A stretch of DNA of 64,000 bases from a bacterium (GCA_050695215.1 JBOGSD010000068.1:25097-89096), one strand, 5' to 3'. Shown: positions 996 through 41,558, numbered from the stretch's first letter. The notes: generated from the sequence alone by a model not told the origin. Numbers and translations: made by a program.

Positions 996-2182
996 ACCCA
1001 CCCCTCCCGTATTTGCCAATAGTGCGCGGCAGTCTCCTGCAAGCGCTGGCGCGCATGTTCGGTCGCCTCGAGCTCGTCGCGGCGCTCGGCCATCTCCCGG
1101 CCGGCCGCCTCTCGCACGGCGGCGAACCACTGCTCCAGCAGAGCGACGTACTGTTTCCCGGTCTCCTCCAGTATGGGACGCTGCTGGGCATCGGCCATCA
1201 TCGCGCGGACTTCGGGACTCTCCATCCGCACGCTGTAGCGCATCTCCGTCTCGCCGTCGACGGGGGTGAACTCCACGGTCACCCTCAGCTGCCCCATCTC
1301 AGGATCCTTGATCAGATAGGTGAAGTCCTCGAACGGGCGCCACTCCAGGATTTCCTCCATGTGGAAGGACCCATCGCCGTGCATACAGTGCGTCGAGGAC
1401 CCAACGCCGCGCCGGCCCTCCGGATGATCTTCCCGCCGGACGATGTCGGGGGAGACCTGGCTGTAGCGTCCCGGCGTCGTCATGTACGCCCAGGCGAGCG
1501 GGGCGGGCGCGGGGATGGACGCGCGCACGGTAAAGTCGGCGTCGGCGGCCCGGAGAAACTCCTGCCGCGTCTCCTGCACCTGGGCCCACCGCGCCTCGAG
1601 ATTGTGCACGTACCCCGGGACCTCCCCAATGTGCTCGTATGTTTCCAGGTGCGGGGCCATCCCGGCCGCCGCGGGGTCGATCTTCATCGCCTCGACGGTG
1701 GCCGCCGTGAGGAGACCGTAGCCGTGCAGTCCCCTCGTCTCGCTCACTGAGTTCTTCAAGAGGCGGTGGACCAGGATGACGTCGCGGCCGGCCAGCTCCT
1801 CTTGCCCCGCGATGCGCTGGCGCACGAAGGTGCCGTTGTGTACGCAGAACTTCAGGCCGAGCCGGGGGATCAAGATACAGGCGTTGCACTGGCAGGTCGT
1901 GGCCCGTCTGATCGACTGGACACGGCGCTGAAAGGCGAAATAGGTGCTCTCCAGGACATCCAGCAGCATCGAGCCGTCGACCTCCGTCTCAGGTGCGTAG
2001 GTGAAGACGGCGTCGCCTTCCAGTTTGGCCAGGCGCAGGGCCGGCTGGAAGCGGCCGATGACCAGCTCCATCAAGTCAGCCAGGATATCCTGCGCGTGGT
2101 CAATTTCCGTGCCGCTGAGGTAACTGGTGTAGCCGGAGATGTCCGCGATGACCAGGCAGGCGCGTTCAGGTTTGTTGAGCAT
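956..2182 (-). CDS. DUF2652 (nucleotidyl-cyclase-like) fused to a C-terminal SRPBCC/polyketide-cyclase-like domain
   Basis: N-terminus LVIADISGYTSYL...KLEGDAVF resembles a class III cyclase fold. The C-terminal approximately 150 aa look START/Bet v1-like. GAGGAGGA lies upstream of the ATG. Confidence 0.7.
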   Translation of the reverse strand: MLNKPERACLVIADISGYTSYLSGTEIDHAQDILADLMELVIGRFQPALRLAKLEGDAVFTYAPETEVDGSMLLDVLESTYFAFQRRVQSIRRATTCQCNACILIPRLGLKFCVHNGTFVRQRIAGQEELAGRDVILVHRLLKNSVSETRGLHGYGLLTAATVEAMKIDPAAAGMAPHLETYEHIGEVPGYVHNLEARWAQVQETRQEFLRAADADFTVRASIPAPAPLAWAYMTTPGRYSQVSPDIVRREDHPEGRRGVGSSTHCMHGDGSFHMEEILEWRPFEDFTYLIKDPEMGQLRVTVEFTPVDGETEMRYSVRMESPEVRAMMADAQQRPILEETGKQYVALLEQWFAAVREAAGREMAERRDELEATEHARQRLQETAAHYWQIREGWVQDPAGSPSASTS

Positions 2183-2306
2183 CGATCCTCCTCGTGGATA
2201 GCCGACTCATCGCGGTGGGCAGGTGCCCCCCTGGCAAATTGGACGCGGGGCGGGGGATTCCTCGCGCCCGGCGGGGAGGGGGCGTGGGAGGCGGCCCCGG
2301 TCTCGC

Positions 2307-2687
2307 TTACTGCACGAACTGATAGGCCAGCACCACCGTGCCGAAGGGCTGGCTGGTCCTCCGGCGCATGATCTCCTGCCCGTCCGCCAGCAGGCGCACC
2401 ACCAGGTCTCCCGCGTCCGTGTCCTTCACGAAGGTCGCGGCGACGGCCACGGCGGTCGTCACCGTGTACTGCGCGGGCACGGTCCCCCGCGCCGAGACGG
2501 TGGAGAGGGGCGTGCCGTAACTCCCGGTGAAGGCCAGCCCCGGCGTGCCTTCCACCAGGATCGTCACCGTCCGTTCTCGCCCCATCTGGGGAGGCGTGGG
2601 AGGCGGAGCGAAGGAGCCGAGGCAGCCGGTGGCGAGAAGCAGGGAGGCGGTGATGAGGCCCAGGATCGGGAGTCGCGGGGGACTCAC
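2307..2687 (-). CDS. Small lipoprotein (signal peptide with LATGC lipobox)
   Basis: N-terminal hydrophobic segment plus lipobox. The start overlaps the stop of the upstream gene by 4 nt. Confidence 0.5.
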   Translation of the reverse strand: MSPPRLPILGLITASLLLATGCLGSFAPPPTPPQMGRERTVTILVEGTPGLAFTGSYGTPLSTVSARGTVPAQYTVTTAVAVAATFVKDTDAGDLVVRLLADGQEIMRRRTSQPFGTVVLAYQFVQ

Positions 2688-3115
2688 GGGGCGTCCTCCA
2701 GGTAGCCTTCCAGATGGGCCCGGATGAACGCCAGCAGTTCAGCGTCGGTGCGCTCGGGGTCGAGGGCGTCCTCCCGGACGAGCGTGAGGGGGGTGCGCAG
2801 CCGGCGCGGCCCCACGAACTCGACGCGGATCCCGGCGGCGTCCTCCTCGACGTCCAGGCGGGAGCCGGGGGCCAGGTCCGCGGCGACGCGGCGGACCAGC
2901 GCCAGGTAACGGTCCAGCCCCGCGTAGTTGTGTAGCGCCGTCATGGCCCGCTCGCGCGCGTCGGCCGTGTCACGGCCGCGTACCAGGTGAGGAACAAAGG
3001 GACGTGCCCCGTCTCCGGAGCCCTCCAGCACGGCGACTTCCACCCGACGGAGGTCCGGACGCTCTACATAGCGGAAGGTGAAGCGGCGGCCGTAAAGGCT
3101 TACTTCCTCTGTCAC
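2684..3115 (-). CDS. Hypothetical protein (143 aa)
   Basis: Bridges the recombinase and the lipoprotein with ATGA-type overlaps on both sides. No recognised domain. Confidence 0.45.
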   Translation of the reverse strand: MTEEVSLYGRRFTFRYVERPDLRRVEVAVLEGSGDGARPFVPHLVRGRDTADARERAMTALHNYAGLDRYLALVRRVAADLAPGSRLDVEEDAAGIRVEFVGPRRLRTPLTLVREDALDPERTDAELLAFIRAHLEGYLEDAP

Positions 3116-4020
3116 GTCGGGTATTTCAGCTCCCGTTCTACGACTTCCGATAGGCGTTCTCTTGCGACCTTGGTATACACTCGCGTTGTCTTGGGGTCCT
3201 TGTGGCGAAGGATATCCTGGATGTACTGCAACGGCACGCCCCGGTCCGCGAGCGTCACGCCTGCGGTATGACGCAGGTCGTGGAAGCGCAAGCGCCTCTC
3301 GATAGCGGCATCTTTGAGGTACCTGGCCAGGGCTTTCTCGACCGTCGTGTAGTGCAGCCGTCTCGCGCCTCGCGGTGGCAATGGGATGAACACCGCCCGT
3401 GAGGCGCAGACTGGTCGACGAGCCAGCCAGGACTCCACCGCCTGGACGGCGTCTTCGCTCACCGGCTGGATGGCCTCCGCACCGCCTTTTCCTGTGATCT
3501 TGAGCTGCCTCCGATCAAGCAGAAGATCCACAAGGTCGAGGTTCAGGATCTCGCTGATCCGGAGCGATTGCAGCCCCAGTTCGATGATGGCGCGGTCACG
3601 GAGCCCCCGGTCGTGGCGCGGGATAGCCCGCCTCAGCGCACCGACCTCTTCCGGCAGGAGGAAGTTTGGGGTCCGCTCGGGGACCCTGGGGGGCCGAATC
3701 GATTGAGCGGGGTTGGCGTCCAGTCTTCCAGTCTCCACGAGATACGCGTAGAAGCGCCGAATGGCGACAATACGGCGGGCTCTGGAGCGTGGGGCGAGAC
3801 CGGCACGGGTCATCGCGTGAGCATACCGTCGAACGACGTCTGCGGTGACCGCGGCGAGATCCGTCTTCTGGAGGAACTCCATGAACTGCCGGAGATCCCC
3901 CAGGTACTCGCCGACCGTCCTATTGGACTTGTTGGCGCTGTCCAGATCCCCGGCCCACTCCTGGAGGAGAGGGGGGAGGTCGGCTGGCATGCCGCGGCGG
4001 CGGCCATACGATCTAGCCAT
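3112..4020 (-). CDS. Tyrosine site-specific recombinase, XerC/XerD family
   Basis: C-terminal catalytic region HDLRHT...LGH-like...RVYT with catalytic Tyr. N-terminal SAM-like core-binding domain. The start could instead be at 3990. Confidence 0.8.
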   Translation of the reverse strand: MARSYGRRRGMPADLPPLLQEWAGDLDSANKSNRTVGEYLGDLRQFMEFLQKTDLAAVTADVVRRYAHAMTRAGLAPRSRARRIVAIRRFYAYLVETGRLDANPAQSIRPPRVPERTPNFLLPEEVGALRRAIPRHDRGLRDRAIIELGLQSLRISEILNLDLVDLLLDRRQLKITGKGGAEAIQPVSEDAVQAVESWLARRPVCASRAVFIPLPPRGARRLHYTTVEKALARYLKDAAIERRLRFHDLRHTAGVTLADRGVPLQYIQDILRHKDPKTTRVYTKVARERLSEVVERELKYPT

Positions 4021-4107
4021 AGTGAGCCACCAGGCAATTCAGCCTAATCGTCATTAGACAGAATATACGCGGCTGGCCAGCCAATTCCTCCGGTCCCGAT
4101 GGGCTTC

Positions 4108-4121
4108 CGAACGAGTGTTTG
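4108..4121 (+). promoter_or_regulatory. Candidate LexA (SOS) box CGAACGAGTGTTTG
   Basis: Cheo-type GAAC-N4-GTTC-like palindrome between divergent lexA and the recombinase operon. The same CGAAC-N4-GTTTG form occurs upstream of recA at 39587-39600. Confidence 0.5.
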
Positions 4122-4139
4122 CCCGGCCCGCGGCGCCGG

Positions 4140-4148
4140 TGGTATAAT
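4140..4148 (+). promoter_or_regulatory. Extended -10 element TGGTATAAT for lexA
   Basis: TGnTATAAT lies about 55 nt upstream of the lexA ATG and just downstream of the candidate SOS box. Confidence 0.35.
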
Positions 4149-4204
4149 CCCTCCGCACTCCCGAAGGAGCCCGAACCTCACATCCCTGCAAGGAGGCCGC
4201 CACC

Positions 4205-4828
4205 ATGGGTCGAGCGCTGACGCGGCGCCAGGCGGAAATTCTCACTTTCATTCAACGGTACAGTGAGACGCACGGCTACCCGCCGTCGGTGCGTGAGATC
4301 GGCCGGGCCCTCGGTTTGACCAGCAGCTCGACGGTCCACAGCCATCTGGCTGCGCTGGAAAAGAAAGGCTACCTGCACCGCGACCCATCGAAGCCCCGCG
4401 CGCTGGAGATCCTCCGGGACGAGCACGCCATGGCGCCCAAGAAGATGGTGCCGCTGCCGGTCGTCGGCCGGGTGGCCGCCGGCACCCCGATTCTGGCCGA
4501 GGAGAACATCGAAGACTACCTGCCGCTGCCGACCGAGTTCCTGCGCGACGGCGGCGACGGCGGCTTCATCTTGCACGTCCGCGGCGACAGCATGATCGAC
4601 GACGGTATCCAGGACGGGGATTATCTCATCGTCCGCAAGCAGCCGACGGCCCGGGACGGCGACATCGTCGTGGCCCGTTTGGATGACGGCGCCACCGTGA
4701 AGCGCTTCTACCGTGAGGACGGCCACGTCCGCCTCCAGCCCGCCAACGCCGCCATGGAGGCGATCCGCACGCGCGACGTCCACATCGAAGGCAAGGTTGT
4801 CGGTCTGATCCGCCGGATGGTCTCCTAA
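4205..4828 (+). CDS. lexA: LexA repressor
   Basis: N-terminal winged HTH (GYPPSVREIG). C-terminal S24 peptidase with AAG cleavage site and Ser/Lys dyad (GDSM...KRF). AAGGAGG RBS. Confidence 0.9.
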   Translation: MGRALTRRQAEILTFIQRYSETHGYPPSVREIGRALGLTSSSTVHSHLAALEKKGYLHRDPSKPRALEILRDEHAMAPKKMVPLPVVGRVAAGTPILAEENIEDYLPLPTEFLRDGGDGGFILHVRGDSMIDDGIQDGDYLIVRKQPTARDGDIVVARLDDGATVKRFYREDGHVRLQPANAAMEAIRTRDVHIEGKVVGLIRRMVS

Positions 4829-13346: not shown

Positions 13347-14588
13347 TCAGGCCCCAGACCTGCGGGATGACTCCTCGCCTCCGACCCTGGAGGATGACGC
13401 CTCACGTCCAACCCTGGAGGATGGCGTCTGACTTCCAAAAGCACGGGCCAACCGGTCGAGGGCCTCGTCGAGCCGGGCGTCCGGCGTGGTCAGGGAGATG
13501 CGGACATAGCGGACTCCCTGGGCGCCATAACCTGCGCCTGGGGTGATGAGGACGCCGGTGCGGTCCAGCACCTCCGCCGCAAAGTCGGCGCCGCTGCGCC
13601 CGTTGGGGGCGGCCATCCAAAGATAGATCGTGGCCTTGGGCCGGTCCACCGGCCAGCCGATCGCGGTGAGCGCCTCCGTGGCGCGGTCCCGCCGGCGGCG
13701 GTAGACGTCCACGCGCTGATGCAGCGGTTCCCGCGGCCCCAGCAGGGCGGCGACGCCCGCTTCCTGGACGGCTCGGAACACACCGGAATCGACGTTGGTC
13801 TTGATCGTCCCCAGCGCCTTGATCACCGCGGCGTTGCCGACGGCAAACCCGATGCGCCACCCGGTCATGCAGAAGGTTTTGGAGAGGGAGTGAAACTCCA
13901 CCCCCACCTCCTTGGCGCCGTGCGCCTGCAGGAAGCTGGGCGGCCGGTACCCATCGTAGGCGATCTCGGAATAGGAGTTGTCGTGCGCCACCACCAGGTC
14001 GTGCGCCTGCGCAAACTGGACCGCCTCTTCGAAGAACGGCAGCTCGATCACGCCGGCGGTGGGATTGTTGGGGTAGTTGAGAAAGAGGATCCGGGCGCGG
14101 CGCGCGCTCGCCGCAGAGATAGCGGCCAGCTCCGGGACGAACGCGCGCGCGGGGTCGAGGGGGAACGCGATCGGGTCCCCCTCCGCCAGGATCGTGGCGG
14201 AGCGGTAGACCGGATAGCCGGGGTCCGGGACGAGCGTGGCGTCGCCCGGATTCAAGAGCGCCCAGGGCAAGTGGGCCAGTCCCTCTTTTGACCCGATCAA
14301 GGCGAGGACTTCGGTCTGGGGGTCGAGGCGAACGTCGAACCGGCGGCGGTACCATTCGGCCACCGCCTCGCGAAAGTCCGCGCTGCCCCCATACGGAGGA
14401 TAGCGGTGGCTCCGCGGATCCCGCGCCGCCCGCACCAGCGCATCGATGATGTGCTCCGGCGTCGGCAGATCGGGGTCGCCGACGCCCAGGCTGATCACGT
14501 CGACGCCTTTCGCCGCCAGCGCCTCCTTCTGGCGGTCCAGGTCGGCGAACAGGTAGGCGCCGATGCGGTTCAGTCGGCCCGAGTTCAT
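13347..14588 (-). CDS. Class I/II PLP aminotransferase (LL-diaminopimelate aminotransferase DapL-like)
   Basis: Aminotransferase class I fold with SLSKTF PLP-lysine motif. Start taken at the ATG at 14588, preceded by GGTGGAG. The C-terminal tail is encoded by a 27-bp tandem duplication. Confidence 0.75.
   Translation of the reverse strand: MNSGRLNRIGAYLFADLDRQKEALAAKGVDVISLGVGDPDLPTPEHIIDALVRAARDPRSHRYPPYGGSADFREAVAEWYRRRFDVRLDPQTEVLALIGSKEGLAHLPWALLNPGDATLVPDPGYPVYRSATILAEGDPIAFPLDPARAFVPELAAISAASARRARILFLNYPNNPTAGVIELPFFEEAVQFAQAHDLVVAHDNSYSEIAYDGYRPPSFLQAHGAKEVGVEFHSLSKTFCMTGWRIGFAVGNAAVIKALGTIKTNVDSGVFRAVQEAGVAALLGPREPLHQRVDVYRRRRDRATEALTAIGWPVDRPKATIYLWMAAPNGRSGADFAAEVLDRTGVLITPGAGYGAQGVRYVRISLTTPDARLDEALDRLARAFGSQTPSSRVGREASSSRVGGEESSRRSGA
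13386..13440. repeat. 27-bp imperfect tandem duplication (2 copies) in the 3' end of the aminotransferase gene
   Basis: CCCTGGAGGATGACGCCTCACGTCCAA followed by CCCTGGAGGATGGCGTCTGACTTCCAA, read directly on the plus strand. Confidence 0.5.
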
Positions 14589-14608
14589 TGCTCCACCATC
14601 TTCCGCCT

Positions 14609-15514
14609 TCATTGCATCGTAAGCATAGCATGGACAGTCATCGCGACCGTTTCCGCCCCGGCGTGCCCCACGTCGATCCAACGGATGCGGGTGTCGCGGC
14701 GAAACCAGACCTCCTGGCGCCGCGCATACCGCCTCGTGTTCCGTTTGAGCAGGGCCACCGCGTTGTCGAGGGTCGCCTTCCCCTCCAGGACCGGGACGAT
14801 CTCCTTGTAACCGAGGCCCTGCATGGCGGGGGTGCTGGGAGGGACGCCCGCGGAGACGAGCGCGCGCACCTCCTCGACCAGTCCGGCGGCAATCTGCTGA
14901 TCCACCCGTTCATCGATCCGCCGCTGCAGCAGCGGACGAGGCATCCGCAGCCCGATCATCGTGACCTGCCAGAGAGGCGCCTCGGCCCGCTGCTGCGCCG
15001 AGAGCGGCCGTCCCGTGCGGTCGATCACCTCCAGCGCCCGGATGATCCGCCGCACGTTCCGCGGATGAATGCGCGCCGCCGCCTGCGGATCTACCTGCTC
15101 CAGGCGCGCATAGAGGGCGCCGGGGGTGAGCCCATCCGCCTCCTCCGCCTTCCGGCGGAATGCCCAGTCGGGACTCACCCGGGGAAGGCGCAGGCCATCG
15201 ACGAGGGCCCGCAGGTAGAGGCCCGTCCCCCCGACCAGCAGCGGCACCCGCGCGCGGGCGTGCACGGAGGCGATGGCGGCCAGCGCGAGGCCCTGGTACT
15301 GGCTCAGCGTGAAGACCTCGCGGGGGTCGGCGACGTCGAGCAGATGATGGGGCACGGCGGCCCGCGCGGCCGGCGTGGGCTTGGCCGTCCCGATGTCCAT
15401 CCCACGGTAGATGGTACGCGAATCGGCGGAGACGATCTCCGCGCCGATCTCCGGCGCCAGGGCCACCGCGGCGGCGCTCTTGCCGGTGGCGGTCGCTCCA
15501 CAGATGACCACCAC
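14609..15514 (-). CDS. miaA: tRNA dimethylallyltransferase
   Basis: P-loop CGATATGKS and DSRTIYRGMDIGTAKP motif. The start is a GTG. Confidence 0.9.
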   Translation of the reverse strand: MVVICGATATGKSAAAVALAPEIGAEIVSADSRTIYRGMDIGTAKPTPAARAAVPHHLLDVADPREVFTLSQYQGLALAAIASVHARARVPLLVGGTGLYLRALVDGLRLPRVSPDWAFRRKAEEADGLTPGALYARLEQVDPQAAARIHPRNVRRIIRALEVIDRTGRPLSAQQRAEAPLWQVTMIGLRMPRPLLQRRIDERVDQQIAAGLVEEVRALVSAGVPPSTPAMQGLGYKEIVPVLEGKATLDNAVALLKRNTRRYARRQEVWFRRDTRIRWIDVGHAGAETVAMTVHAMLTMQ

Positions 15515-15574
15515 CCGCCGCGGCGTCAGCCCTCCCTCCGCCGCGGCGTTAGCCGTCCTTCACCGCCCCGAGGA

Positions 15575-17281
15575 TCATCGTCGGAGGAACCAGCGTTCGA
15601 GGGTAGGCCGGGAGACCCAGACCATCGTGGGGCGGCCGTGGAAGCAGGTGAACGGATCCTCCGTCGCCTCGAGGTCGGCCAGCAGGCCGGTCATCTCGGC
15701 CTCAGTGAGCGGGTCCCCGGCGCGCACCGCGGTGTGGCAGGCGGTGGCGATGGCCAGACGCGCCACCGCTCCGTCGCCGCTGCCCGGCTCCAGGAGGGCG
15801 CCGAGCACGCGGTGCAGCAGCCGGTCTGGGGCCTGGCGGCGCAATGCCGCGGGGATCGCCCGCACCAGGAGCGTCGATCCGCCGAACGGCTCGAGGGCGA
15901 AGCCCAACCGCACGGAGGCGGGCAGGAATTCATCCAGCACCCCCATCTCCTCGGCGCTGAGCTCCACCGGCACCGGGGCCGTCAATGCCTGCGCTGCTTG
16001 GGGCCCGCCGGCCCGACGCAGCAGCCGCTCGTAGAGGATGCGCTCGTGTGCGGCGTGCTGGTCGATCAGGACCAGCCCGTCGGCAGCCTCGGCCAACAGA
16101 TAGGTCCGCAGGATCTGCCCGAGCGGGCGCAGCGCGGGCAGCCGCCTTCCCTCCTCCACCGGCAGCGCCGGAGGAGCCCCGGTGAGTGTGGTTCCGGCGT
16201 AGAGCGGGGCGGGTTCGGCGATCGTGGAAGCGATCGCAGAGGCGAGAGCGCCGCCGACCGCGACGGCCGCGAGGTCCGGCGCCGCGCGGAGCGCCCCCGG
16301 CGCCACGAGCGCGTCGCGCACCGCCCGCTGCGCCGCCACGAAGACGCGGTGCTCGTCGCCGAAGCGCACCTCGTGCTTGCGCGGATGGACGTTGACGTCC
16401 ACCGCCGCCGGGGCGATGTCCAGGAAGAGGACGACCACGGGCGCGAGCCCCACGGGCAGGAGTTCCGCGTACCCTTGCGCGACCGCCCGGGAGAGCAGCC
16501 GGCTTTGGATGGGACGGCGGTTGACAAAGAGATACTCGATGGGCCGCCCCGGACGCGCGCGCTCGGGGCGGACGGTCCAGCCGGAGACGGACAGCCCGCT
16601 GCCCTCTCTGCGCAGCGGGACCATCGCGGCGCCGAGGTCGCGGCCGAGGACCTGCGCCAGGCGCTCTTCGGGATCCGCCGCGGGGTAGGCGAAGGTTTCT
16701 CGCTCTTCGTGGCGCAACCGGAAGGCCACCGCCGGTGCGGCCAGGGCCAACCGCTGGAGGGTCTCGGCGATCAAGGCAAACTCCCGTGCCGCCGACTTGA
16801 GGAACTTGCGCCGGGCGGGGGTGTTGAAGAAGAGCGATTCGACCATGACCACGGTGCCGGGGGCGGTTCCGCTGACGCTGATGCGGGCGGCGCTCCCTCC
16901 CTCGCTCTCCACGCGCGTGCCGGCGTCGGCGGCGGGAGGGCGGGTATTCAGCGCCAGCCGGCTCACCGCGGCGATGCTGGGAAGCGCTTCACCGCGGAAG
17001 CCGAACGTGGCGATGCGTTCCAAGTCGTCGGCCGCGCCGATCTTGCTGGTGGCGAAGCGGCGCACCGCCAGGGCGGCATCGTCGGGGTCCATGCCGGCCC
17101 CGTCATCACTGACTCGGATGAGTGCGAGGCCCGCCCCCAGGATTTCAACGGTGATCGAGTGCGCGCCGGCGTCGAGACTGTTCTCGACCAGTTCCTTCAC
17201 GACCGAGGCGGGACGCTCCACCACCTCGCCGGCGGCGATCCGGTCGGCGACATGCTGATCGAGGACGTGGATCCGGCTCAC
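15575..17281 (-). CDS. mutL: DNA mismatch repair protein MutL
   Basis: GHKL ATPase N-terminus (ELVENSLDAGA), transducer domain and C-terminal dimerisation domain. 4-nt overlap with mutS. Confidence 0.9.
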   Translation of the reverse strand: MSRIHVLDQHVADRIAAGEVVERPASVVKELVENSLDAGAHSITVEILGAGLALIRVSDDGAGMDPDDAALAVRRFATSKIGAADDLERIATFGFRGEALPSIAAVSRLALNTRPPAADAGTRVESEGGSAARISVSGTAPGTVVMVESLFFNTPARRKFLKSAAREFALIAETLQRLALAAPAVAFRLRHEERETFAYPAADPEERLAQVLGRDLGAAMVPLRREGSGLSVSGWTVRPERARPGRPIEYLFVNRRPIQSRLLSRAVAQGYAELLPVGLAPVVVLFLDIAPAAVDVNVHPRKHEVRFGDEHRVFVAAQRAVRDALVAPGALRAAPDLAAVAVGGALASAIASTIAEPAPLYAGTTLTGAPPALPVEEGRRLPALRPLGQILRTYLLAEAADGLVLIDQHAAHERILYERLLRRAGGPQAAQALTAPVPVELSAEEMGVLDEFLPASVRLGFALEPFGGSTLLVRAIPAALRRQAPDRLLHRVLGALLEPGSGDGAVARLAIATACHTAVRAGDPLTEAEMTGLLADLEATEDPFTCFHGRPTMVWVSRPTLERWFLRR

Positions 17282-19953
17282 TGCACTCGCTTCTCTGCCC
17301 GTCCCGCCGGCGGGCGGCGGGACGCCCGGGCGCGGTCGCGCAACTCGGAGAGCCGGTTCAGCGCCTCCAGCGGCGACATCGTCTCGACGGCCATGGCCAG
17401 CAGCTCCTCTTCGAGGGGGGACTCGACGGCCAGCGGGAGCGGCATCTGCCGGGCGGCGCGCGCCCGGCCGGGCAGGGGCGCGGCGGCCTCCTCCTGCGCC
17501 GGCGCCGCGCCGGGTCCGACGGAGAGGGCTTCGAGATGCGCGAGCACCCGGCGGGCCTGGTCGATCACGGCGGCGGGAATCCCCGCGAGGCGGGCCACGT
17601 GGATGCCGTAGGAGCGATCGGCCGCACCGGGAGAGACGCGATGCAAGAAGACCACCTCCTCCCCCTCTTCGGCGACGAGGACGTTGACGTTGTGGACGCG
17701 GGGGAGCAGGGCGGCCAGTTCGGTGAGTTCGTGGAAGTGCGTGGCGAAGAGGGTGCGCGCCCCGATCGCGTCGTGCAGGTGCTCGACGACCGCCCAGGCC
17801 AGGGCCATCCCGTCGTAGGTGCTGGTGCCGCGCCCGACTTCATCCAGGATGATGAGACTGGCCCGCGTCGCGCTGTGCAGGATCTGCGCCGTCTCCTGCA
17901 TCTCCACCAGGAAGGTGCTGCGTCCCGCCGCCGCGTCCTCACTGGCGCCGACGCGCGCAAAGATCCGGTCGGTCACGCCCACCGTCGCGTCCGCCGCAGG
18001 GACGAAGGAGCCGATCTGCGTCATGACGACCAGGATCGCGGCCTGCCGGCAGTAGACGCTCTTGCCGGCCATGTTGGGACCGGTGACGATGACGATGGCC
18101 CGGTCGTCGGCGTCCAGGTCGAAGTCGTTGGGGACGAAGCCTCCGGCCGGCAGCGCCGCTTCCACCACGGGGTGGCGGGCCGCCCGGGCGCGCAGGACCG
18201 GTTCCTCGGTGAGCACCGGGCGGACGAACGCGTGCGCCTCCGCCACCTCGGCGAGGGACGCCAGGACGTCCCACTCGGCCAGCGCCGTCGCGGTCCGCAG
18301 GATGGACCCGGCGTGGCGCGCCACCGCCTCGCGCAGGGCGGCAAACAGCGCCGCCTCCATCTCCTCGGCGCGCTCTTGGGCCCCCAGGATGAGGGCCTCG
18401 CGCTCTTTCATCTCCCCCGTGATGAAGCGCTCCGCCCCCGTCAGCGTCTGCTTGCGCACGTAGTCAGCGGGGACCAGTTTCAGGTTGGGGCGTGAGACTT
18501 CGATGTAGTACCCGAAGACTTTGTTGAAGCCGACGCGCAGCGATTTGATGCCGGTGCGGGCGCGCTCGGCCCCCTCCAGCGCGGCGATCCATTGCTTCCC
18601 GCCCCGGGCCGCGTCACGCAGCGCATCGAGATCGGGATGGTAGCCGTCTCGGAAGATGCCGCCCTCCCCCGCCGTCGCGGGGGGATCATCGGCGAGGGCG
18701 CGGGCGAGATCGGTGGCGACCTCGTCGTGCGCGTCCACCTGCGCGGTCAGTGTCGCCAGGAGCGGCGCGCCGGCCCCGGCCATCGCCTCCTTGAGGGCGG
18801 GGATCCGGTCCAGGGAGAGCCGCAGCGCCGCCAGATCGCGAGGCGTCGCCGACCCATGCCCCACCCGGCCGATCATCCGCGCCAGGTCCGAGACCGGCCG
18901 CAGCCCGGCTCGCACGGTCTCCCGCACCGCCGGACGGCGGAGTTCTTCGACCGCATCAAGCCGCGCCGCGATCGCTCCGGCGTCCCGGAGCGGTTGGCTG
19001 AGCCAGGTCGCCAACAACCGGCCGCCCATCGGCGTGAGGGTGCGGTCGAGGAGCGCCAGCAGGGTGTGTTTCGTCGAGCCGTCCCGCAGGTTGCGCAGAA
19101 TTTCGAGGTGGCGGCGCGTGCCTTCATCGAGGAGAAGGACGGCCTCGAGCTGGTAGGTGCGCAGTCCGCGCAGGTGGTCCAGCGGGCTGCGCTGCGTCTC
19201 TTGCAGATAAGAGAGGAGCACTCCCGCCGCGGTGACGGCCGTCCCCAGCGCCGCGGCCCCGTACCCGTCGAGGCTGTGCACCCGGAAGTGTTCCAGCAGC
19301 GTCCGCCGCGCCAGGGCGGGATCCCAGCGCCACGCCTCAATCGTCGTGATGGCTGTGGACGCCAGGTGCGCGCGGACGAGCGCCGCCTCCTCGGGCGCGG
19401 CGAGAACCTCCCGGGGCTCCAGGCGTGCGGCTTCCTCCCACAGCGCCGCGCTGTTGTCCTCGGGGACCTCCGTGATCAGGAACTCGCCGGTGGAGAGGTC
19501 GCAGGCAGCCATCCCCCACCGGTCGTCCTGGCGGGCGATGGCGATGAGAAAGGTGGCTCGGGCCGGCAGCAGCGAGGCCTCCATGACCGTCCCCGGCGTA
19601 ATGATGCGGGTGACCTCGCGCCGGAGAAGCCGTCGACCGCCCTGAGCGAGGAGCTCGTGCGCCTGCCCCGGATCCTCGGTCTGGTCGCAGAGCGCCACCC
19701 GGTGGCCGCGCTCGACCAGCCGCGCCACGTACGTCATCGCCGCGTGATGGGGGACGCCGCACATGGGAATGCGCCGCCCCTTGCCCACCTCGCGGGAGGT
19801 GAGGGTGATCTCCAGTTCGCGCGCGGCCACTTCCGCGTCCTCATAGAACAACTCATAGAAATCGCCCAGGCGGAAGAGCAGCAGCGTGTCGGGGTGGCGG
19901 GTCTTCAACTCATGGTATTGTCGCATCATCGGGGTGAGATCGTGGAAGGTCAT
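17278..19953 (-). CDS. mutS: DNA mismatch repair protein MutS
   Basis: Mismatch-binding N-terminus (PMMRQY...GDFYELF) and Walker A TGPNMAGKS. 891 aa. Confidence 0.92.
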   Translation of the reverse strand: MTFHDLTPMMRQYHELKTRHPDTLLLFRLGDFYELFYEDAEVAARELEITLTSREVGKGRRIPMCGVPHHAAMTYVARLVERGHRVALCDQTEDPGQAHELLAQGGRRLLRREVTRIITPGTVMEASLLPARATFLIAIARQDDRWGMAACDLSTGEFLITEVPEDNSAALWEEAARLEPREVLAAPEEAALVRAHLASTAITTIEAWRWDPALARRTLLEHFRVHSLDGYGAAALGTAVTAAGVLLSYLQETQRSPLDHLRGLRTYQLEAVLLLDEGTRRHLEILRNLRDGSTKHTLLALLDRTLTPMGGRLLATWLSQPLRDAGAIAARLDAVEELRRPAVRETVRAGLRPVSDLARMIGRVGHGSATPRDLAALRLSLDRIPALKEAMAGAGAPLLATLTAQVDAHDEVATDLARALADDPPATAGEGGIFRDGYHPDLDALRDAARGGKQWIAALEGAERARTGIKSLRVGFNKVFGYYIEVSRPNLKLVPADYVRKQTLTGAERFITGEMKEREALILGAQERAEEMEAALFAALREAVARHAGSILRTATALAEWDVLASLAEVAEAHAFVRPVLTEEPVLRARAARHPVVEAALPAGGFVPNDFDLDADDRAIVIVTGPNMAGKSVYCRQAAILVVMTQIGSFVPAADATVGVTDRIFARVGASEDAAAGRSTFLVEMQETAQILHSATRASLIILDEVGRGTSTYDGMALAWAVVEHLHDAIGARTLFATHFHELTELAALLPRVHNVNVLVAEEGEEVVFLHRVSPGAADRSYGIHVARLAGIPAAVIDQARRVLAHLEALSVGPGAAPAQEEAAAPLPGRARAARQMPLPLAVESPLEEELLAMAVETMSPLEALNRLSELRDRARASRRPPAGRAEKRVQ

Positions 19954-21856: not shown

Positions 21857-21956
21857 TGGTGGCGGAGGGCCCTGGGAATCGAACCCAGCGCGGAACCCGA
21901 GGCCCCGCCACCGGTTTTGAAGACCGGGACCCGCACCAGCGGACACTGCCCTCCGC
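21857..21956 (-). tRNA. selC: tRNA-Sec (selenocysteine tRNA, anticodon UCA)
   Basis: Reverse complement reads GCGGAGGG..GUCCGC-UGGU-GCGGGU..CCGGU-CUUCAAA-ACCGG..long variable arm..CUGGG-UUCGAUU-CCCAG..CCCUCCGC-CACCA. The anticodon loop CUUCAAA is identical to E. coli selC. 6-bp D-stem with 4-nt loop, long extra arm, about 100 nt total. The exact 5'/3' ends are uncertain by 1-3 nt because of the CCACCA tail. Confidence 0.75.
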
Positions 21957-37362: not shown

Positions 37363-39516
37363 TCAGGCCTTGACCTTGACCGGCGCCTCCTTGACCCCTG
37401 TTGCTTCGCGCTTGCCCTCGGCGCCGTCGCGTGAGCCTGCGCCGTTGCGCCGGGGCAGTCCCAGCGTGTCCCGGGTCCGCGTCTCCAGCTCGCGGGCCAG
37501 CTCGAGATTGCTCTCCAGGAAATCGCGCGCGTTGTCCCGCCCCTGGCCCAGGCGGAGGTCGCCGTAGGAGAACCAGGTGCCGGTGCGGCTGATCAGTCCG
37601 GCGGCGTGCGCCGTGTCGAGCAGGCTGCCGGTCCGGGAAATCCCCTGTCCGTAGAAGATGTCCACCTCGGCGTCGCGGAAGGGCGGGGCGAGCTTATTCT
37701 TCACCACTTTGATCCGCGCCCGCATGCCCTTGATCTCTTCCCCGCTCTTGATGGACTCGATGCGGCGGATCTCCATGCGCACGGAGGAATAGAACTTGAG
37801 GGCGCGGCCGCCAGTGGTGGTTTCCGGCGAGTTGTGGACGACAGCACCGCCGACGAGATAGGTGTGGTTGCCCTCAACCTCCAGATCAAACCGCCGCATG
37901 GAGCGTGTCGGCGGCTTCTTGTAGATCCGGGCGATCCTCGCGGGGACGGCACGGAGATACCGTCGGGCCGAGAGGCGGGTTCCGTTCAAGTGTGCATCAC
38001 TGAGATCGGGCTGCCAGGCATATCGACCGCGCAACGTGGGGTGAAGCTTATAATCCACTGACGGATGGAGATAGGGGGCGATCAATTCATGAAACTTCGC
38101 GGTCTGCTCTGCCGTAAACCAAAACCCCCGGCCGTCATCACGCGGTCGACCCACTCCGAGCCGTTCAAACAGGGCGGCCACCCGTTCCCGGTCAGTGCCC
38201 TGAAGCGACGTGTTGTAAATCGCAGCCTTTCCGTGACCCCAGCGTGCAAAGTGCCCGGCGAAGGATCCGTCGTCGCCGTACCATACGGCCACGCCGCGGG
38301 CATCGAGTTGGTCAAGGACCGTTGCCGCGGCGGTTCGCTGGCCTTCGGCGTACAAACTGGTCCGCAGTTCAGCAAGCGTGGGGAATGCGAGTGTTTCAAA
38401 TCCCTGTCCATTGCCCCTGGGACCGAAGTCCTGCGAGAACGGTTCCAGCATCCAGTGCTTCCATCTCGCATATGCGGTTTGTGCTTCCCCATGGCCCACC
38501 CGGAAGGACGCCGCCTGGGTACTCACCTGCCGGAGCGCTCCGTCACCCAGCGTCCCGCCCAGGATGAGCTGCAATTGATCCTCGGTCAGACGGTAGTCTT
38601 CGACTGAAGCCAATACCTCGTCACCTTCGCGGAGCTCACCCGCGGGAACTTCTCCCCGGGGCGTGAATATCATGTGGTTGGGAGTAACGCCAAATCGGCG
38701 CCGGCCCGACGGACCCCCTTCGATCTCGAATTGGAGGAAATGCTCGGCGTTCCCATTGTCGAACCAATTCACGACGCGGCGCGGCTGCAGCCTCCCGGTC
38801 GCGGCATCGTAACTGAGCACCTCGACGGGTATCCGCTGGTTGACGATCTTGCCGATCTTCATTCTGCTTCCGTCAGCGAGCACGACGCGAGCATTGTAGT
38901 GGAAGCAGCCAAACATGACCCCGATCTTCTCTCGGATCTGGTTGATGAAGATCACGGTGGTGTGGGACTTGCTGATCGTCCCCACCAGTTTGCGCAGCGC
39001 CTGGGACATCAGCCGGGCGTGCAGGCCGACGTGGGCGTCGCCCATCTCCCCTTCCAGTTCAGCCCGCGGCACCAGCGCGGCGACCGAGTCGATGACGATG
39101 ACGTCCACCGCGCCGCTGCGCACGAGCATCTCCGCGATCTCGAGGGCCTGCTCGCCGCTGTCGGGCTGGGAGAGCAACAGGCCATCGATGTCTACCCCCA
39201 CGGCCCGGGCGTAGTTGGGGTCGAGGGCGTGCTCGGCGTCGATGAAGGCGGCGACGCCGCCGTCGCGCTGCGCCTCGGCGATGATGTGGTAGCCCAGCGT
39301 GGTCTTCCCGGAGGCTTCGGGCCCGTAGATCTCCACGACCCGCCCCCGGGGGACGCCGCCCACCCCCAGGGCCGCGTCCAGGGCCACCGAGCCTGTCGAA
39401 ATCACTTCCACCTGTAATTTGGCAGAGGCTTCGCCCAGCCTCATGATGGAGCCCTTGCCGAACTGCTTCTCGATCTGGGTCAAAGCGAGCTCCAACGCTC
39501 GCTGGCGCTCATTCAT
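37363..39516 (-). CDS. recA: Recombinase RecA precursor containing an in-frame intein (717 aa; exteins 203+155 aa)
   Basis: Exteins align with RecA: Walker [10 protein letters not shown], ...[10 protein letters not shown] | [14 protein letters not shown].... A 359-aa insertion begins with Cys and ends with HN followed by Ser. Confidence 0.92.
37831..38907 (-). mobile_element. RecA intein (RecA-b insertion site) with LAGLIDADG-type homing endonuclease domain
   Basis: N-terminal splice junction G|[15 protein letters not shown]-terminal block [14 protein letters not shown]|S. Two LAGLIDADG-like motifs ([23 protein letters not shown]). Confidence 0.85.
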
Positions 39517-39586: not shown

Positions 39587-39600
39587 CAAACAAATGTTCG
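39587..39600 (-). promoter_or_regulatory. Candidate LexA (SOS) box CGAACATTTGTTTG upstream of recA
   Basis: Same CGAAC-N4-GTTTG form and the same orientation relative to the gene as the lexA box. Lies about 70 nt upstream of the recA ATG. Confidence 0.5.
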
Positions 39601-40319: not shown

Positions 40320-41558
40320 TCAGGAACGCAGCAGGCGGAGGCGGATCAGATCCAGGGCGGCCTGGCTGGCCAGAAAGCGGATCCCGCGGCGGCCGGGCTG
40401 TTTGCCGAATCGCCACGCCCGGCTGTGCACCCCTTCCCGGTCCGCCAGGGCGATAAAGACCAATCCCACCGGCTTCTCGGCGCTGCCACCAGCGGGCCCG
40501 GCGACCCCCGTGATGCCGAGGGCCAGGTCGCTGTCTGCCCGTTCGCGCGCGCCTCGCGCCATCGCCTCGGCCACGGCCGCGCTCACCGCCCCCTGGCGAT
40601 CGAGGAGGTCGGGAGAGACGCCGAGCAATGCCGTCTTGGCCGCGTTGCTGTAGGCGACTGCGCCGAACCGGAAGTAGGCCGAACTGCCGGGGAGGGCGGT
40701 CAACCGGTCGGCGGTCAGGCCGCCCGTGCACGATTCCCCCACAGCCACGGTCATCCCGTGCTCCAGGAGGAGCCGTCCGGCGACGACTTCGAGGGTGTCA
40801 TCGTCGACGCCAAAGATGAGGTTCCCCAGCCGCTCACGGACAGCGGCCTCGCCGGCGGCCAGCTGGGCCTCCACCTCGGCCGGCGGCCCCTTGGCCGTCA
40901 GACGGAGGTGCACCTCACCCAATTTCGCGTACGGTGCGATGGTTGGAGCGGGCAGCCGGAGCACATCCTTGATCCGCTCCTCCACGGCGGATTCGCCGAG
41001 CCCGGTGACCCTGAGGACGCGCGAGCGGATCACCGTCTCTCCCGTACGGGCGCGGAGCCAGGGCACGAGGAAGTCCTCCACCATGCCCTCCATCTCCCCG
41101 GGGACCCCCGGCATCATGACGATCGTGGACCCGCCAAGGGCCACCACCACTCCGGGAGCGGTGCCGCGCCGGTTCGGGATGATCTGCGCGCCGCTGGGAA
41201 TGAGCGCCTGTTTGTACACCGACTCTGGCGCAGGCCGCCCCCGCAGCGCGAAGAAGTCTCGGATCGAAGCGGCCACGGTCTCGTCACGCATGAGGGGCAG
41301 TCCGAGCGCCGCCGCGACGGTGGCCACCGTGAGGTCGTCCTCCGTCGGGCCCAGGCCGCCGGTGATGACGATCAGCTCAGCGCGGCCGAGGGCCAGGCGC
41401 ACGACTTCAGTCAGGCGGGCCGCGTTATCCCCAACGGTCTGTTTGAAGAAGAGATCGGCACCGGCGGAGGCGAGCACCCGGGCCAGGTAGGCGGCGTTGC
41501 TGTCGGTGATCTGACCGAGGAGGAGCTCGGTCCCAACCGAGAGGAGCTCGGCGCGCAC
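40320..41558 (-). CDS. cinA: CinA (competence/damage-inducible protein A; NMN deamidase domain)
   Basis: N-terminal MoCF-binding domain (LLSVGTELLLGQITDSN) and C-terminal CinA domain. Confidence 0.85.
   Translation of the reverse strand: MRAELLSVGTELLLGQITDSNAAYLARVLASAGADLFFKQTVGDNAARLTEVVRLALGRAELIVITGGLGPTEDDLTVATVAAALGLPLMRDETVAASIRDFFALRGRPAPESVYKQALIPSGAQIIPNRRGTAPGVVVALGGSTIVMMPGVPGEMEGMVEDFLVPWLRARTGETVIRSRVLRVTGLGESAVEERIKDVLRLPAPTIAPYAKLGEVHLRLTAKGPPAEVEAQLAAGEAAVRERLGNLIFGVDDDTLEVVAGRLLLEHGMTVAVGESCTGGLTADRLTALPGSSAYFRFGAVAYSNAAKTALLGVSPDLLDRQGAVSAAVAEAMARGARERADSDLALGITGVAGPAGGSAEKPVGLVFIALADREGVHSRAWRFGKQPGRRGIRFLASQAALDLIRLRLLRS

What the first reader, a model, noticed from the sequence alone, without database searches (positions are those of the whole stretch)
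2307..4204. Xer-type tyrosine recombinase translationally coupled to a small unknown protein and a lipoprotein, divergent from lexA
The recombinase, a 143-aa protein without known domains and a 126-aa lipoprotein overlap by 4 nt at each junction. This arrangement is not the usual stand-alone xerC or xerD. The shared divergent promoter with lexA contains the SOS box. The recombinase may therefore be damage-inducible, for example a cryptic element or dimer-resolution system under SOS control.
Basis: inference. Interest (0 to 1): 0.5.

Follow-up and report, generated by a model that had tools for sequence, protein, structure and literature searches.

The report
Xer-type recombinase with adjacent dif-like site
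The recombinase next to lexA in this uncultured soil bacterium (phylum Sysuimicrobiota, formerly CSP1-3) sits right behind its own conserved 28-bp dif-like target site, so it is most likely a one-enzyme chromosome-unlinking system of a known kind, and there is no good evidence that DNA damage switches it on.

Summary
The three overlapping minus-strand genes, the divergent lexA and the LexA box are all present as described. It has 11-bp arms around a 6-bp centre, the geometry of a dif site.

A site of this form lies 10-80 bp upstream of the recombinase gene in every orthologous locus with upstream DNA (15 distinct sequences). That includes lineages where the gene is not next to lexA, and Ca. 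Geohabitans, where the site-plus-gene block is inverted. The two arms co-vary, and each locus holds exactly one site.

The recombinase has all catalytic residues and is closest to XerD and XerA, but scores far below the XerC, XerD, XerA and XerS family cut-offs.

My best reading is a single-recombinase Xer/dif module, analogous to XerS/difSL, XerH/difH and XerA/dif.

SOS control is not supported. The LexA box overlaps the lexA -35, its distance to the recombinase gene varies, and the box and gene are separated in related lineages.

The 143-aa protein and the lipoprotein are lineage-restricted orphans that are only loosely linked to the recombinase.

I could not test whether the site lies at the replication terminus on a whole-genome scale, or whether this is the only Xer in the genome.

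The parts
4037..4064 (-). 28-bp dif-like core site. In the recombinase's orientation it reads ATTCTGTCTAA-TGACGA-TTAGGCTGAAT: 11-bp inverted arms around a 6-bp centre. It is 36% G+C in a ~69% G+C genome and ends 16 nt before the recombinase start codon.
   Evidence: It is unique in the 64-kb window, both at <=3 mismatches and by a leave-one-out PWM (25.9 bits, no other hit above 12). Positional homologues lie upstream of every orthologue with upstream DNA. The arms co-vary.
3112..4020 (-). Xer-type tyrosine recombinase, 302 aa.
   Evidence: Pfam PF00589 and PF02899. Scores fall below the XerC, XerD, XerA and XerS cut-offs. The catalytic residues R154, K178, H247, R250, H273 and Y282 are invariant in 17 orthologues. 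The closest solved structures are XerD 1a0p and XerA 4a8e. It is the only tyrosine recombinase in the window.
2684..3115 (-). 143-aa acidic cytoplasmic orphan protein (p143). Its start overlaps the recombinase stop (GTGA).
2307..2687 (-). 126-aa lipoprotein with a small beta-sandwich mature domain. Its start overlaps the p143 stop (GTGA).
4109..4120 (+). LexA box GAACGAGTGTTT.
   Evidence: It is conserved in all lexA-linked loci, always with the GTTT end towards lexA. The same motif lies inside the recA promoter at 39588-39599.
4119..4148 (+). lexA promoter, TTGCCC-18-TATAAT (with TG). Its -35 overlaps the LexA box.
   Evidence: It is the only sigma-70-like promoter found in 2100-4400 on either strand.
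4205..4828 (+). lexA
   Evidence: TIGR00498 at 248 bits against a cut-off of 111; LexA_DNA_bind and Peptidase_S24 domains.

Best explanation
The recombinase and the 28-bp site immediately upstream of it form a single-recombinase Xer/dif-type module.

Inferred mechanism: two recombinase monomers bind the two 11-bp arms of the site. When two copies of the site are present on a chromosome dimer, they synapse, and the enzyme cleaves and exchanges strands at the edges of the 6-bp centre through Tyr282. This resolves the dimer into monomers.

Because the site lies between any promoter and the start codon, the bound enzyme probably also damps its own expression.

What is shown: the gene, its intact catalytic residues, and the conserved, co-varying, unique site that travels with the gene. 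What is inferred: binding, catalysis at this site, the dimer-resolution role, autoregulation, and the absence of a partner recombinase.

The neighbourhood with lexA is a lineage-specific position, possibly near the terminus, rather than a regulatory unit. p143 and the lipoprotein are lineage-specific neighbours of unknown role.
For: (1) Site and gene are linked. A site of the form 11 bp / 6 bp / 11 bp, with invariant inner AA...TT, lies 10-80 bp upstream of the recombinase in 15 distinct versions. The link holds in three situations:
- lineages with a different gene neighbourhood (L009/L036, L013/L014, L037/L042);
- a 33%-identity relative (L069);
- Ca. Geohabitans, where the site-plus-gene block is inverted relative to lexA, p143 and the lipoprotein.

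(2) The arms co-evolve. Pairs 3/26, 4/25, 5/24, 6/23, 7/22 and 8/21 each show two or more Watson-Crick types. An arm matches its own partner at 8.07 of 11 positions, against 6.42 for arms taken from other sites. This is expected if one protein reads both arms.

(3) Each locus has exactly one site, always in the same orientation relative to the gene.

(4) The site is AT-rich and non-coding. It meets the criteria that the Legionella study uses for a dif site: about 30 bp, low G+C, partly palindromic and non-coding (PMC9765430).

(5) The catalytic R-K-H-R-H-Y residues are invariant. The best family and structure matches are XerC, XerD and XerA.

(6) Linkage of gene and site is described as a possible hallmark of single-recombinase Xer systems (XerS, XerH and some XerA; PMC5357621).

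(7) In the lexA-linked loci, local G-C skew and gene orientation converge on the site. Cumulative skew peaks within 0-3 kb of it in L018, L032, L021 and L028. In the window, 75% of coding bases to the right of the site point towards it.
Against: - There is no whole-genome view, so terminus position and genome-wide uniqueness of the site are untested.
- The +/-10-kb skew signal is confounded with gene orientation, and it is absent in L020 and weak in L036 and L013.
- I could not determine whether the same genomes also encode canonical XerC or XerD.
- The protein fails the curated XerC, XerD, XerA and XerS cut-offs.
- A palindrome in front of a gene could be only an operator.
- One site (L033) has poorly complementary arms, 3 of 11.
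- The ParA-linked relatives (L011/L038) lack the site.
- No integrated element or phage carrying a mimic of the site was found that would prove recombination there.
Confidence: 0.6

Rival explanations
1. SOS-inducible operon. LexA bound at 4109-4120 represses the recombinase-p143-lipoprotein operon as well as lexA, so the recombinase and its partners are made after DNA damage. The lipoprotein or p143 might act as an SOS effector, such as a division inhibitor.
For: The box lies in the common intergenic region of all lexA-linked loci. In the window's subclade its distance to the site is fairly constant, about 41-46 bp (read). In Gram-positive bacteria the gene divergent from lexA is typically a LexA-controlled, membrane-anchored division inhibitor, such as YneA, SosA, ChiZ or DivS (PMC6851548). 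Chromosome dimers arise from RecA-dependent recombination, so co-induction would make biological sense (inference).
Against: - The box overlaps the lexA -35, and no sigma-70-type promoter for the recombinase overlaps it. In recA, by contrast, the box sits inside a clear TTGACA-17-TACTGT promoter.
- Spacing from box to site reaches about 113 bp in other species.
- In L020 the box lies downstream of the recombinase, and there is no box upstream of it.
- Orthologues outside this clade are not next to lexA.
- The lipoprotein is absent from several lexA-linked loci (L018, L015, L032). Elsewhere it sits next to a DinB-family gene without a LexA box.
Confidence: 0.2
2. Integrase of a decayed integrated mobile element, with the palindrome as a leftover attachment site.
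For: The protein matches phage integrase families (phrog_1, 158 bits). Its GC3 is lower than that of its neighbours, 0.75 against 0.83-0.92. Foreign genes are inserted next to it in some species, including a LAGLIDADG endonuclease and cupredoxin-like genes. Relatives at 47% identity sit next to parA, in a plasmid-like context.
Against: There is no tRNA nearby, no second copy of the site within 64 kb or within +/-10 kb of any locus, and no cargo. The same flanking metabolic genes are kept across genera. There are no close relatives on plasmids; the best hit is 34% identical, to chromosomal xerD. No full-length site turned up in viral contigs.
Confidence: 0.08
3. The palindrome is only a transcriptional operator, either for autoregulation or for another regulator, and the recombinase acts on a different site elsewhere.
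For: The palindrome lies between the likely promoter region and the start codon. In several lineages a -10-like TACAAT is embedded in its left arm (read).
Against: The 11-6-11 geometry with inner ...AA/TT... resembles the canonical 28-bp dif organisation (E. coli dif sequence recalled from my own knowledge) and the archaeal 28-bp dif organisation described in PMC5357621. The arms co-vary along with recombinase divergence, and the site stays with the gene through rearrangement.
Confidence: 0.1

Closest known systems
XerS/difSL of streptococci and lactococci
   Same: One recombinase, with its target site immediately next to the gene so that the two form a single module (PMC5357621). The arms are imperfect inverted repeats.
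   Different: difSL is 31 bp with an 11-bp centre; here the site is 28 bp with a 6-bp centre. XerS has 356 aa. The protein here scores only 83 bits against the XerS model, whose cut-off is 267.
XerA/dif of archaea
   Same: A single recombinase acts on a 28-bp site with 11-bp arms and a 6-bp centre, and some species carry a linked xerA/dif module. XerA structures are the second- and third-best structural relatives.
   Different: The host here is bacterial. The protein scores 158.5 bits against the XerA model, below its cut-off of 220.
XerH/difH of Helicobacter and Campylobacter; XerL/dif of Legionellales
   Same: These are single-recombinase dimer-resolution systems found in particular lineages. 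difH lies near xerH. The Legionella study uses the same dif criteria applied here.
   Different: Sequence similarity is much lower: XerH scores 58 bits against the profile, compared with 157 for XerD. The Legionella chromosomal dif site is described in disparate gene neighbourhoods, with no linkage to xerL reported.
XerC/XerD with dif (E. coli, B. subtilis)
   Same: These are the closest families by sequence. The site has the same 28-bp geometry, and its right arm (TTATGC..., TTATGTGATAT) resembles the XerD arm TTATGTTAAAT, a sequence I recalled from my own knowledge.
   Different: The canonical system uses two paralogous enzymes and distinct arms, and the genes are not linked to dif. Here the scores are about half the equivalog cut-offs, the arms co-vary as for one protein, and the gene is linked to the site.
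yneA-yneB-ynzC, sosA, chiZ and divS: operons divergent from lexA in Gram-positive bacteria
   Same: They occupy the same position divergent from lexA, with a LexA box in the intergenic region. The B. subtilis operon even contains a recombinase-like gene, yneB (my own knowledge). The lipoprotein is a small, membrane-anchored, extracytoplasmic protein.
   Different: There is no LysM domain or transmembrane-inhibitor homology. The lipoprotein is absent from several lexA-linked loci. LexA control of this operon is not shown.

Membership tests
Single-recombinase Xer/dif systems (functional class) | Tyrosine recombinase with a complete R-K-H-R-H/W-Y catalytic set | tested here: met
   R154, K178, H247, R250, H273 and Y282 are invariant in 17 orthologues.
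Single-recombinase Xer/dif systems (functional class) | Target site of about 28-31 bp: two inverted arms of about 11 bp around a short centre, AT-rich and non-coding | tested here: met
   The window site at 4037-4064 is 36% G+C. Fifteen homologous sites were found and their arms co-vary.
Single-recombinase Xer/dif systems (functional class) | Gene and site genetically linked as one module | tested here: met
   The site lies 10-80 bp upstream in every locus with upstream DNA. The link survives inversion (L020) and changes of neighbourhood.
Single-recombinase Xer/dif systems (functional class) | One site per chromosome, at the replication terminus (cumulative GC-skew maximum) | tested here: inconclusive
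   There is one site per 64 kb and per +/-10-kb locus. Local skew and gene orientation converge on the site in lexA-linked loci but not in L020, L036 or L013. No whole genome was available.
Single-recombinase Xer/dif systems (functional class) | No second Xer paralogue in the genome | not testable with these tools
   Only one tyrosine recombinase occurs in the 64-kb window.
Single-recombinase Xer/dif systems (functional class) | Recombination at the site; filamentation or dimer phenotype on loss; FtsK dependence | not testable with these tools
   This needs experiments.
XerC (TIGR02224) / XerD (TIGR02225) equivalogs | Score at or above the curated cut-off | tested here: not met
   178.6 bits against 335.15, and 171.3 bits against 329.6.
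XerA (NF040815) / XerS (NF003462) | Score at or above the curated cut-off | tested here: not met
   158.5 bits against 220, and 83.3 bits against 267.
LexA regulon (SOS gene) | LexA box overlapping the gene's own promoter, conserved in orthologues | tested here: inconclusive
   A box is present 89-100 bp upstream of the start codon, but it overlaps the lexA -35. No recombinase promoter was identified. Spacing is variable, and the box is lost or displaced in L020, L009, L013 and L037.
Integrated mobile element / prophage integrase | Flanking att repeats, a tRNA or other target, cargo genes, and variable presence among relatives | tested here: not met
   There is no tRNA near the gene. The site is single. 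Flanks are conserved across genera.
SOS-induced cell-division inhibitors next to lexA (YneA, SosA, ChiZ, DivS) | Small membrane-anchored protein, divergent from lexA, LexA-repressed, that blocks division | tested here: inconclusive
   Position and membrane anchoring fit for the lipoprotein. However, there is no homology or LysM domain. It is absent from several lexA-linked loci, and in L027 it occurs in another context without a LexA box. Function was not tested.

The most novel reading that the evidence does not exclude
In this clade the dif-linked recombinase, p143 and the lipoprotein form a LexA-influenced damage module. Dimer resolution is boosted after recombinational repair. Either the acidic orphan p143 acts as a lineage-specific Xer accessory or control factor, taking the place of FtsK-gamma-type activation, or the exported lipoprotein acts as the division-delaying effector that other Gram-positive-type bacteria encode opposite lexA.
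Probability: 0.1. Interest if true: 0.65.

Novelty: new member of a known kind. Interest (0 to 1): 0.4.

Why it matters
The finding gives the uncultured and widespread soil and hot-spring phylum Sysuimicrobiota (CSP1-3) a concrete, testable candidate for its chromosome-dimer resolution system. That candidate is one enzyme plus a defined 28-bp site.

It adds a further lineage to the short list of single-recombinase Xer systems in which gene and site travel together. The co-varying arms offer a natural data set on how recombinase and site specificity co-evolve. The site is also a likely marker of the replication terminus for assembling and orienting these genomes.

The finding also shows that the attractive 'SOS-controlled recombinase' reading rests on adjacency alone.

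Tried and rejected
- **KOPS-like motifs.** I looked for strand-skewed 7- and 8-mers right of the site. The top motifs (CTGGCCG and similar) reflect codon usage and gene orientation. GGGNAGGG gave 9 on the plus strand against 14 on the minus strand, which is uninformative.
- **Viral contigs.** A scan for the core CAATGCCGATTATGC gave 68 hits, but none has the flanking arms, so they are chance matches.
- **A second Xer in the same phylum.** P0133 ('XerC, Armatimonadota') sits in a classic trmFO-xerC-hslV context, but I could not assign it to Sysuimicrobiota. The supplements of the two phylum papers hold no xer, lexA or KO data.
- **Function of the lipoprotein.** Only generic beta-sandwich matches were found.
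- **Other searches.** PADLOC gave no hits. Plasmid matches reached at most 34% identity. Rfam found only tRNA-Sec in the window.
- **Lipoprotein and the SOS regulon.** There is no LexA box in front of the DinB-lipoprotein pair in L027, so nothing independently links the lipoprotein to the SOS regulon.

Full report
**Observation.**
- Three minus-strand ORFs encode a recombinase (3112-4020, 302 aa), an unknown protein (2684-3115, 143 aa; 'p143') and a lipoprotein (2307-2687, 126 aa).
- Each junction is a GTGA overlap of start and stop codons (sequence).
- lexA (4205-4828, +) is divergent and clearly orthologous: TIGR00498 scores 248 bits against a cut-off of 111.
- The box GAACGAGTGTTT lies at 4109-4120.
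- The same motif, GAACATTTGTTT at 39588-39599, lies between a TTGACA -35 and a TACTGT -10 in front of an intein-containing recA in the same window. GAAC-N4-GTTT is therefore the working LexA box of this organism.

**Source.** The exact proteins occur in an uncultured MAG, GCA_975103605.1. Relatives are labelled 'Armatimonadetes bacterium CSP1-3' and Candidatus Geohabitans, which places the window in the phylum Candidatus Sysuimicrobiota.

**What the recombinase is.**
- It has the Phage_integrase and SAM-like domains.
- All six catalytic residues (R154, K178, H247, R250, H273, Y282) are invariant in 17 orthologues.
- Its best families are XerC (178.6 bits), XerD (171.3) and XerA (158.5). All fall far below the curated cut-offs of 335, 330 and 220. 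XerS and integron integrase score much worse.
- The closest solved proteins are E. coli XerD and archaeal XerA; XerH is distant.
- In the 5.8-billion-protein search, orthologues form a discrete group running from 99% down to 47% identity. After that there is a gap, and generic XerC/D-like proteins appear at 37% identity or less.

**The key new feature.** Sixteen nucleotides upstream of the start codon lies a 28-bp site (4037-4064). In the gene's orientation it reads ATTCTGTCTAA-TGACGA-TTAGGCTGAAT. Its arms are 11 bp, 9 of 11 positions are complementary, the centre is 6 bp, and it is 36% G+C in a ~69% G+C genome. I extracted the upstream regions of all orthologous loci obtained by exact-protein look-ups and by scans of genome and metagenome collections. 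The results were:
- Each locus has one site of the same architecture, 10-80 bp upstream of the gene. There are fifteen distinct sequences.
- The inner AA...TT is invariant.
- Six of the eleven arm pairs show two or more different Watson-Crick pairs across species.
- An arm matches its own partner better than arms from other species (8.07 against 6.42 of 11).
- A PWM built without the window's site finds only this position in 64 kb (25.9 bits).
- With the full PWM, every orthologous locus has exactly one hit, always oriented the same way relative to the gene.

The link between gene and site is independent of lexA. It holds in lineages where the gene has other neighbours (L009/L036, L013/L014, L037/L042). 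It also holds in a 33%-identity relative (L069). In Ca. Geohabitans the site-plus-gene block is inverted between p143-lipoprotein and lexA, and the site stays with the gene. Only the parA-linked relatives (L011/L038, 47% identity) lack the site.

**Interpretation.** Three lines of evidence point to a single-recombinase Xer/dif module:
- The site is 28 bp, AT-rich, partly palindromic and non-coding, with 11-6-11 geometry.
- It co-evolves with a catalytically intact XerD/XerA-like enzyme.
- It is genetically linked to that enzyme's gene.

The Xer review states that such linkage is a possible hallmark of single-recombinase systems (XerS/difSL, XerH/difH and some XerA/dif; PMC5357621). The criteria used to recognise the Legionella dif site are the same ones met here, apart from terminus position (PMC9765430).

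I could test terminus position only locally.
- In the window, 75% of coding bases to the right of the site point towards it, and the G-C skew is slightly negative there but positive to the left.
- In L018, L032, L021 and L028 the cumulative skew over +/-10 kb peaks within 0-3 kb of the site.
- This scale is confounded with gene orientation, most of these loci share synteny, and L020, L036 and L013 do not show the pattern.

I therefore rate terminus position as suggestive only. I could not establish whether another Xer exists in the same genome.

**SOS control.**
- The only sigma-70-like promoter in the intergenic region is that of lexA, and its -35 overlaps the box.
- No comparable promoter for the recombinase overlaps the box. 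In recA, by contrast, the box sits inside a textbook promoter.
- The spacer between box and site is about 41-46 bp in the window's subclade but up to about 113 bp elsewhere, and it has no conserved promoter elements.
- In Geohabitans the box lies downstream of the recombinase, and no box lies upstream of it.
- Outside the clade the gene is not near lexA.

LexA control of the recombinase is therefore not a feature of this family, and the window gives no evidence for it beyond adjacency. It is not excluded in this particular species.

**The two small genes.**
- p143 is an acidic (pI 5.5), confidently folded protein (pLDDT 94) with no informative structural or sequence relatives. It is confined to this clade.
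- The lipoprotein has an invariant lipobox cysteine and a generic eight-stranded beta-sandwich.
- p143 follows the recombinase in most lexA-linked species, but other genes are inserted between them in several. These are a LAGLIDADG endonuclease in CSP1-3 with a remnant in L019, two cupredoxin-like genes in L016, and a membrane protein in L004.
- p143 is missing in L015.
- The lipoprotein is missing in L018, L015 and L032. Elsewhere it occurs next to a DinB-family gene with no recombinase.

The translational coupling seen in the window is real but not conserved, so a joint function is unproven. The position opposite lexA recalls the Gram-positive SOS division inhibitors (PMC6851548). That resemblance is a lead, not a result.

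**Mobile-element reading.** There is no tRNA nearby, no second site and no cargo. The flanks are conserved across genera, and there are no close plasmid or phage relatives. The slightly lower GC3 of the gene and its PHROG integrase matches are weak counter-indications.

**Verdict.** The locus is best explained as a new lineage-specific member of the known class of single-recombinase Xer/dif modules, and it happens to lie next to lexA in one clade of Sysuimicrobiota. Interest is moderate. The result is a useful and testable annotation for an uncultured phylum and a good case of recombinase and site co-evolving, but it is not a new kind of system.

Noticed in passing
window 37363-39516 (-), 39588-39599, 40320-41558 (-): recA is 717 aa and carries an intein (Hint plus LAGLIDADG_2 domains inside the RecA domain). 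A LexA box, GAACATTTGTTT, lies between its TTGACA -35 and TACTGT -10. cinA lies just upstream.
   Followed up: partly
window 21860-21954 (-): A selenocysteine tRNA gene (anticodon TCA). It is the only RNA family hit in the window.
   Followed up: no
L020 8744-11591 (Ca. Geohabitans tengchongensis): The dif-like site plus recombinase block is inverted relative to lexA, p143 and the lipoprotein. The order is lipo<- p143<- | site rec-> box lexA->.
   Followed up: yes
L017 6144-6716; L019 5909-6323: In CSP1-3 a LAGLIDADG_1 homing-endonuclease gene is inserted between the recombinase and p143. L019 has a degraded copy and a duplicated 3' end of the recombinase gene.
   Followed up: partly
L016 3545-4446 (-): Two secreted, cupredoxin-like ORFs (with His...Cys...His...Met motifs) are inserted between the recombinase and p143.
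   Followed up: no
L011 842-1121; L038 917-1176: Recombinase relatives at 47% identity lie next to parA. They are preceded by arrays of GTTCGAACGG-like repeats instead of a dif-like site, which suggests a plasmid or partition context.
   Followed up: no
L013 4831-4842; L014 4162-4173: In a lineage without an adjacent lexA, a LexA box (GAACACGTGTTT) lies in front of a radical-SAM gene about 0.5 kb upstream of the recombinase.
   Followed up: no
L069 1790-1817: A recombinase only 33% identical also has an upstream dif-like site (ACACCATCCAA-TGCACA-TTATATGATAC) followed by a Shine-Dalgarno sequence and ATG. Gene-site linkage therefore extends beyond the core clade.
   Followed up: partly
L017, L018, L015, L032, L020, L033, L019: the 20-70 nt between the site and the start codon: Two conserved blocks, AGGA(n)AT and GAAT(T)CTCC, follow the site. 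They do not form a significant hairpin and remain unexplained.
   Followed up: partly
L027 5482-6372: A homologue of the lipoprotein follows a DinB-family gene with a 3-nt gap. There is no recombinase, p143 or LexA box nearby.
   Followed up: partly
window 14588-17611 (+): A 1007-aa ORF has coding-like GC3 but no Pfam hit. It contains the perfect palindrome GAACCAGCGTTC at 15587.
   Followed up: no
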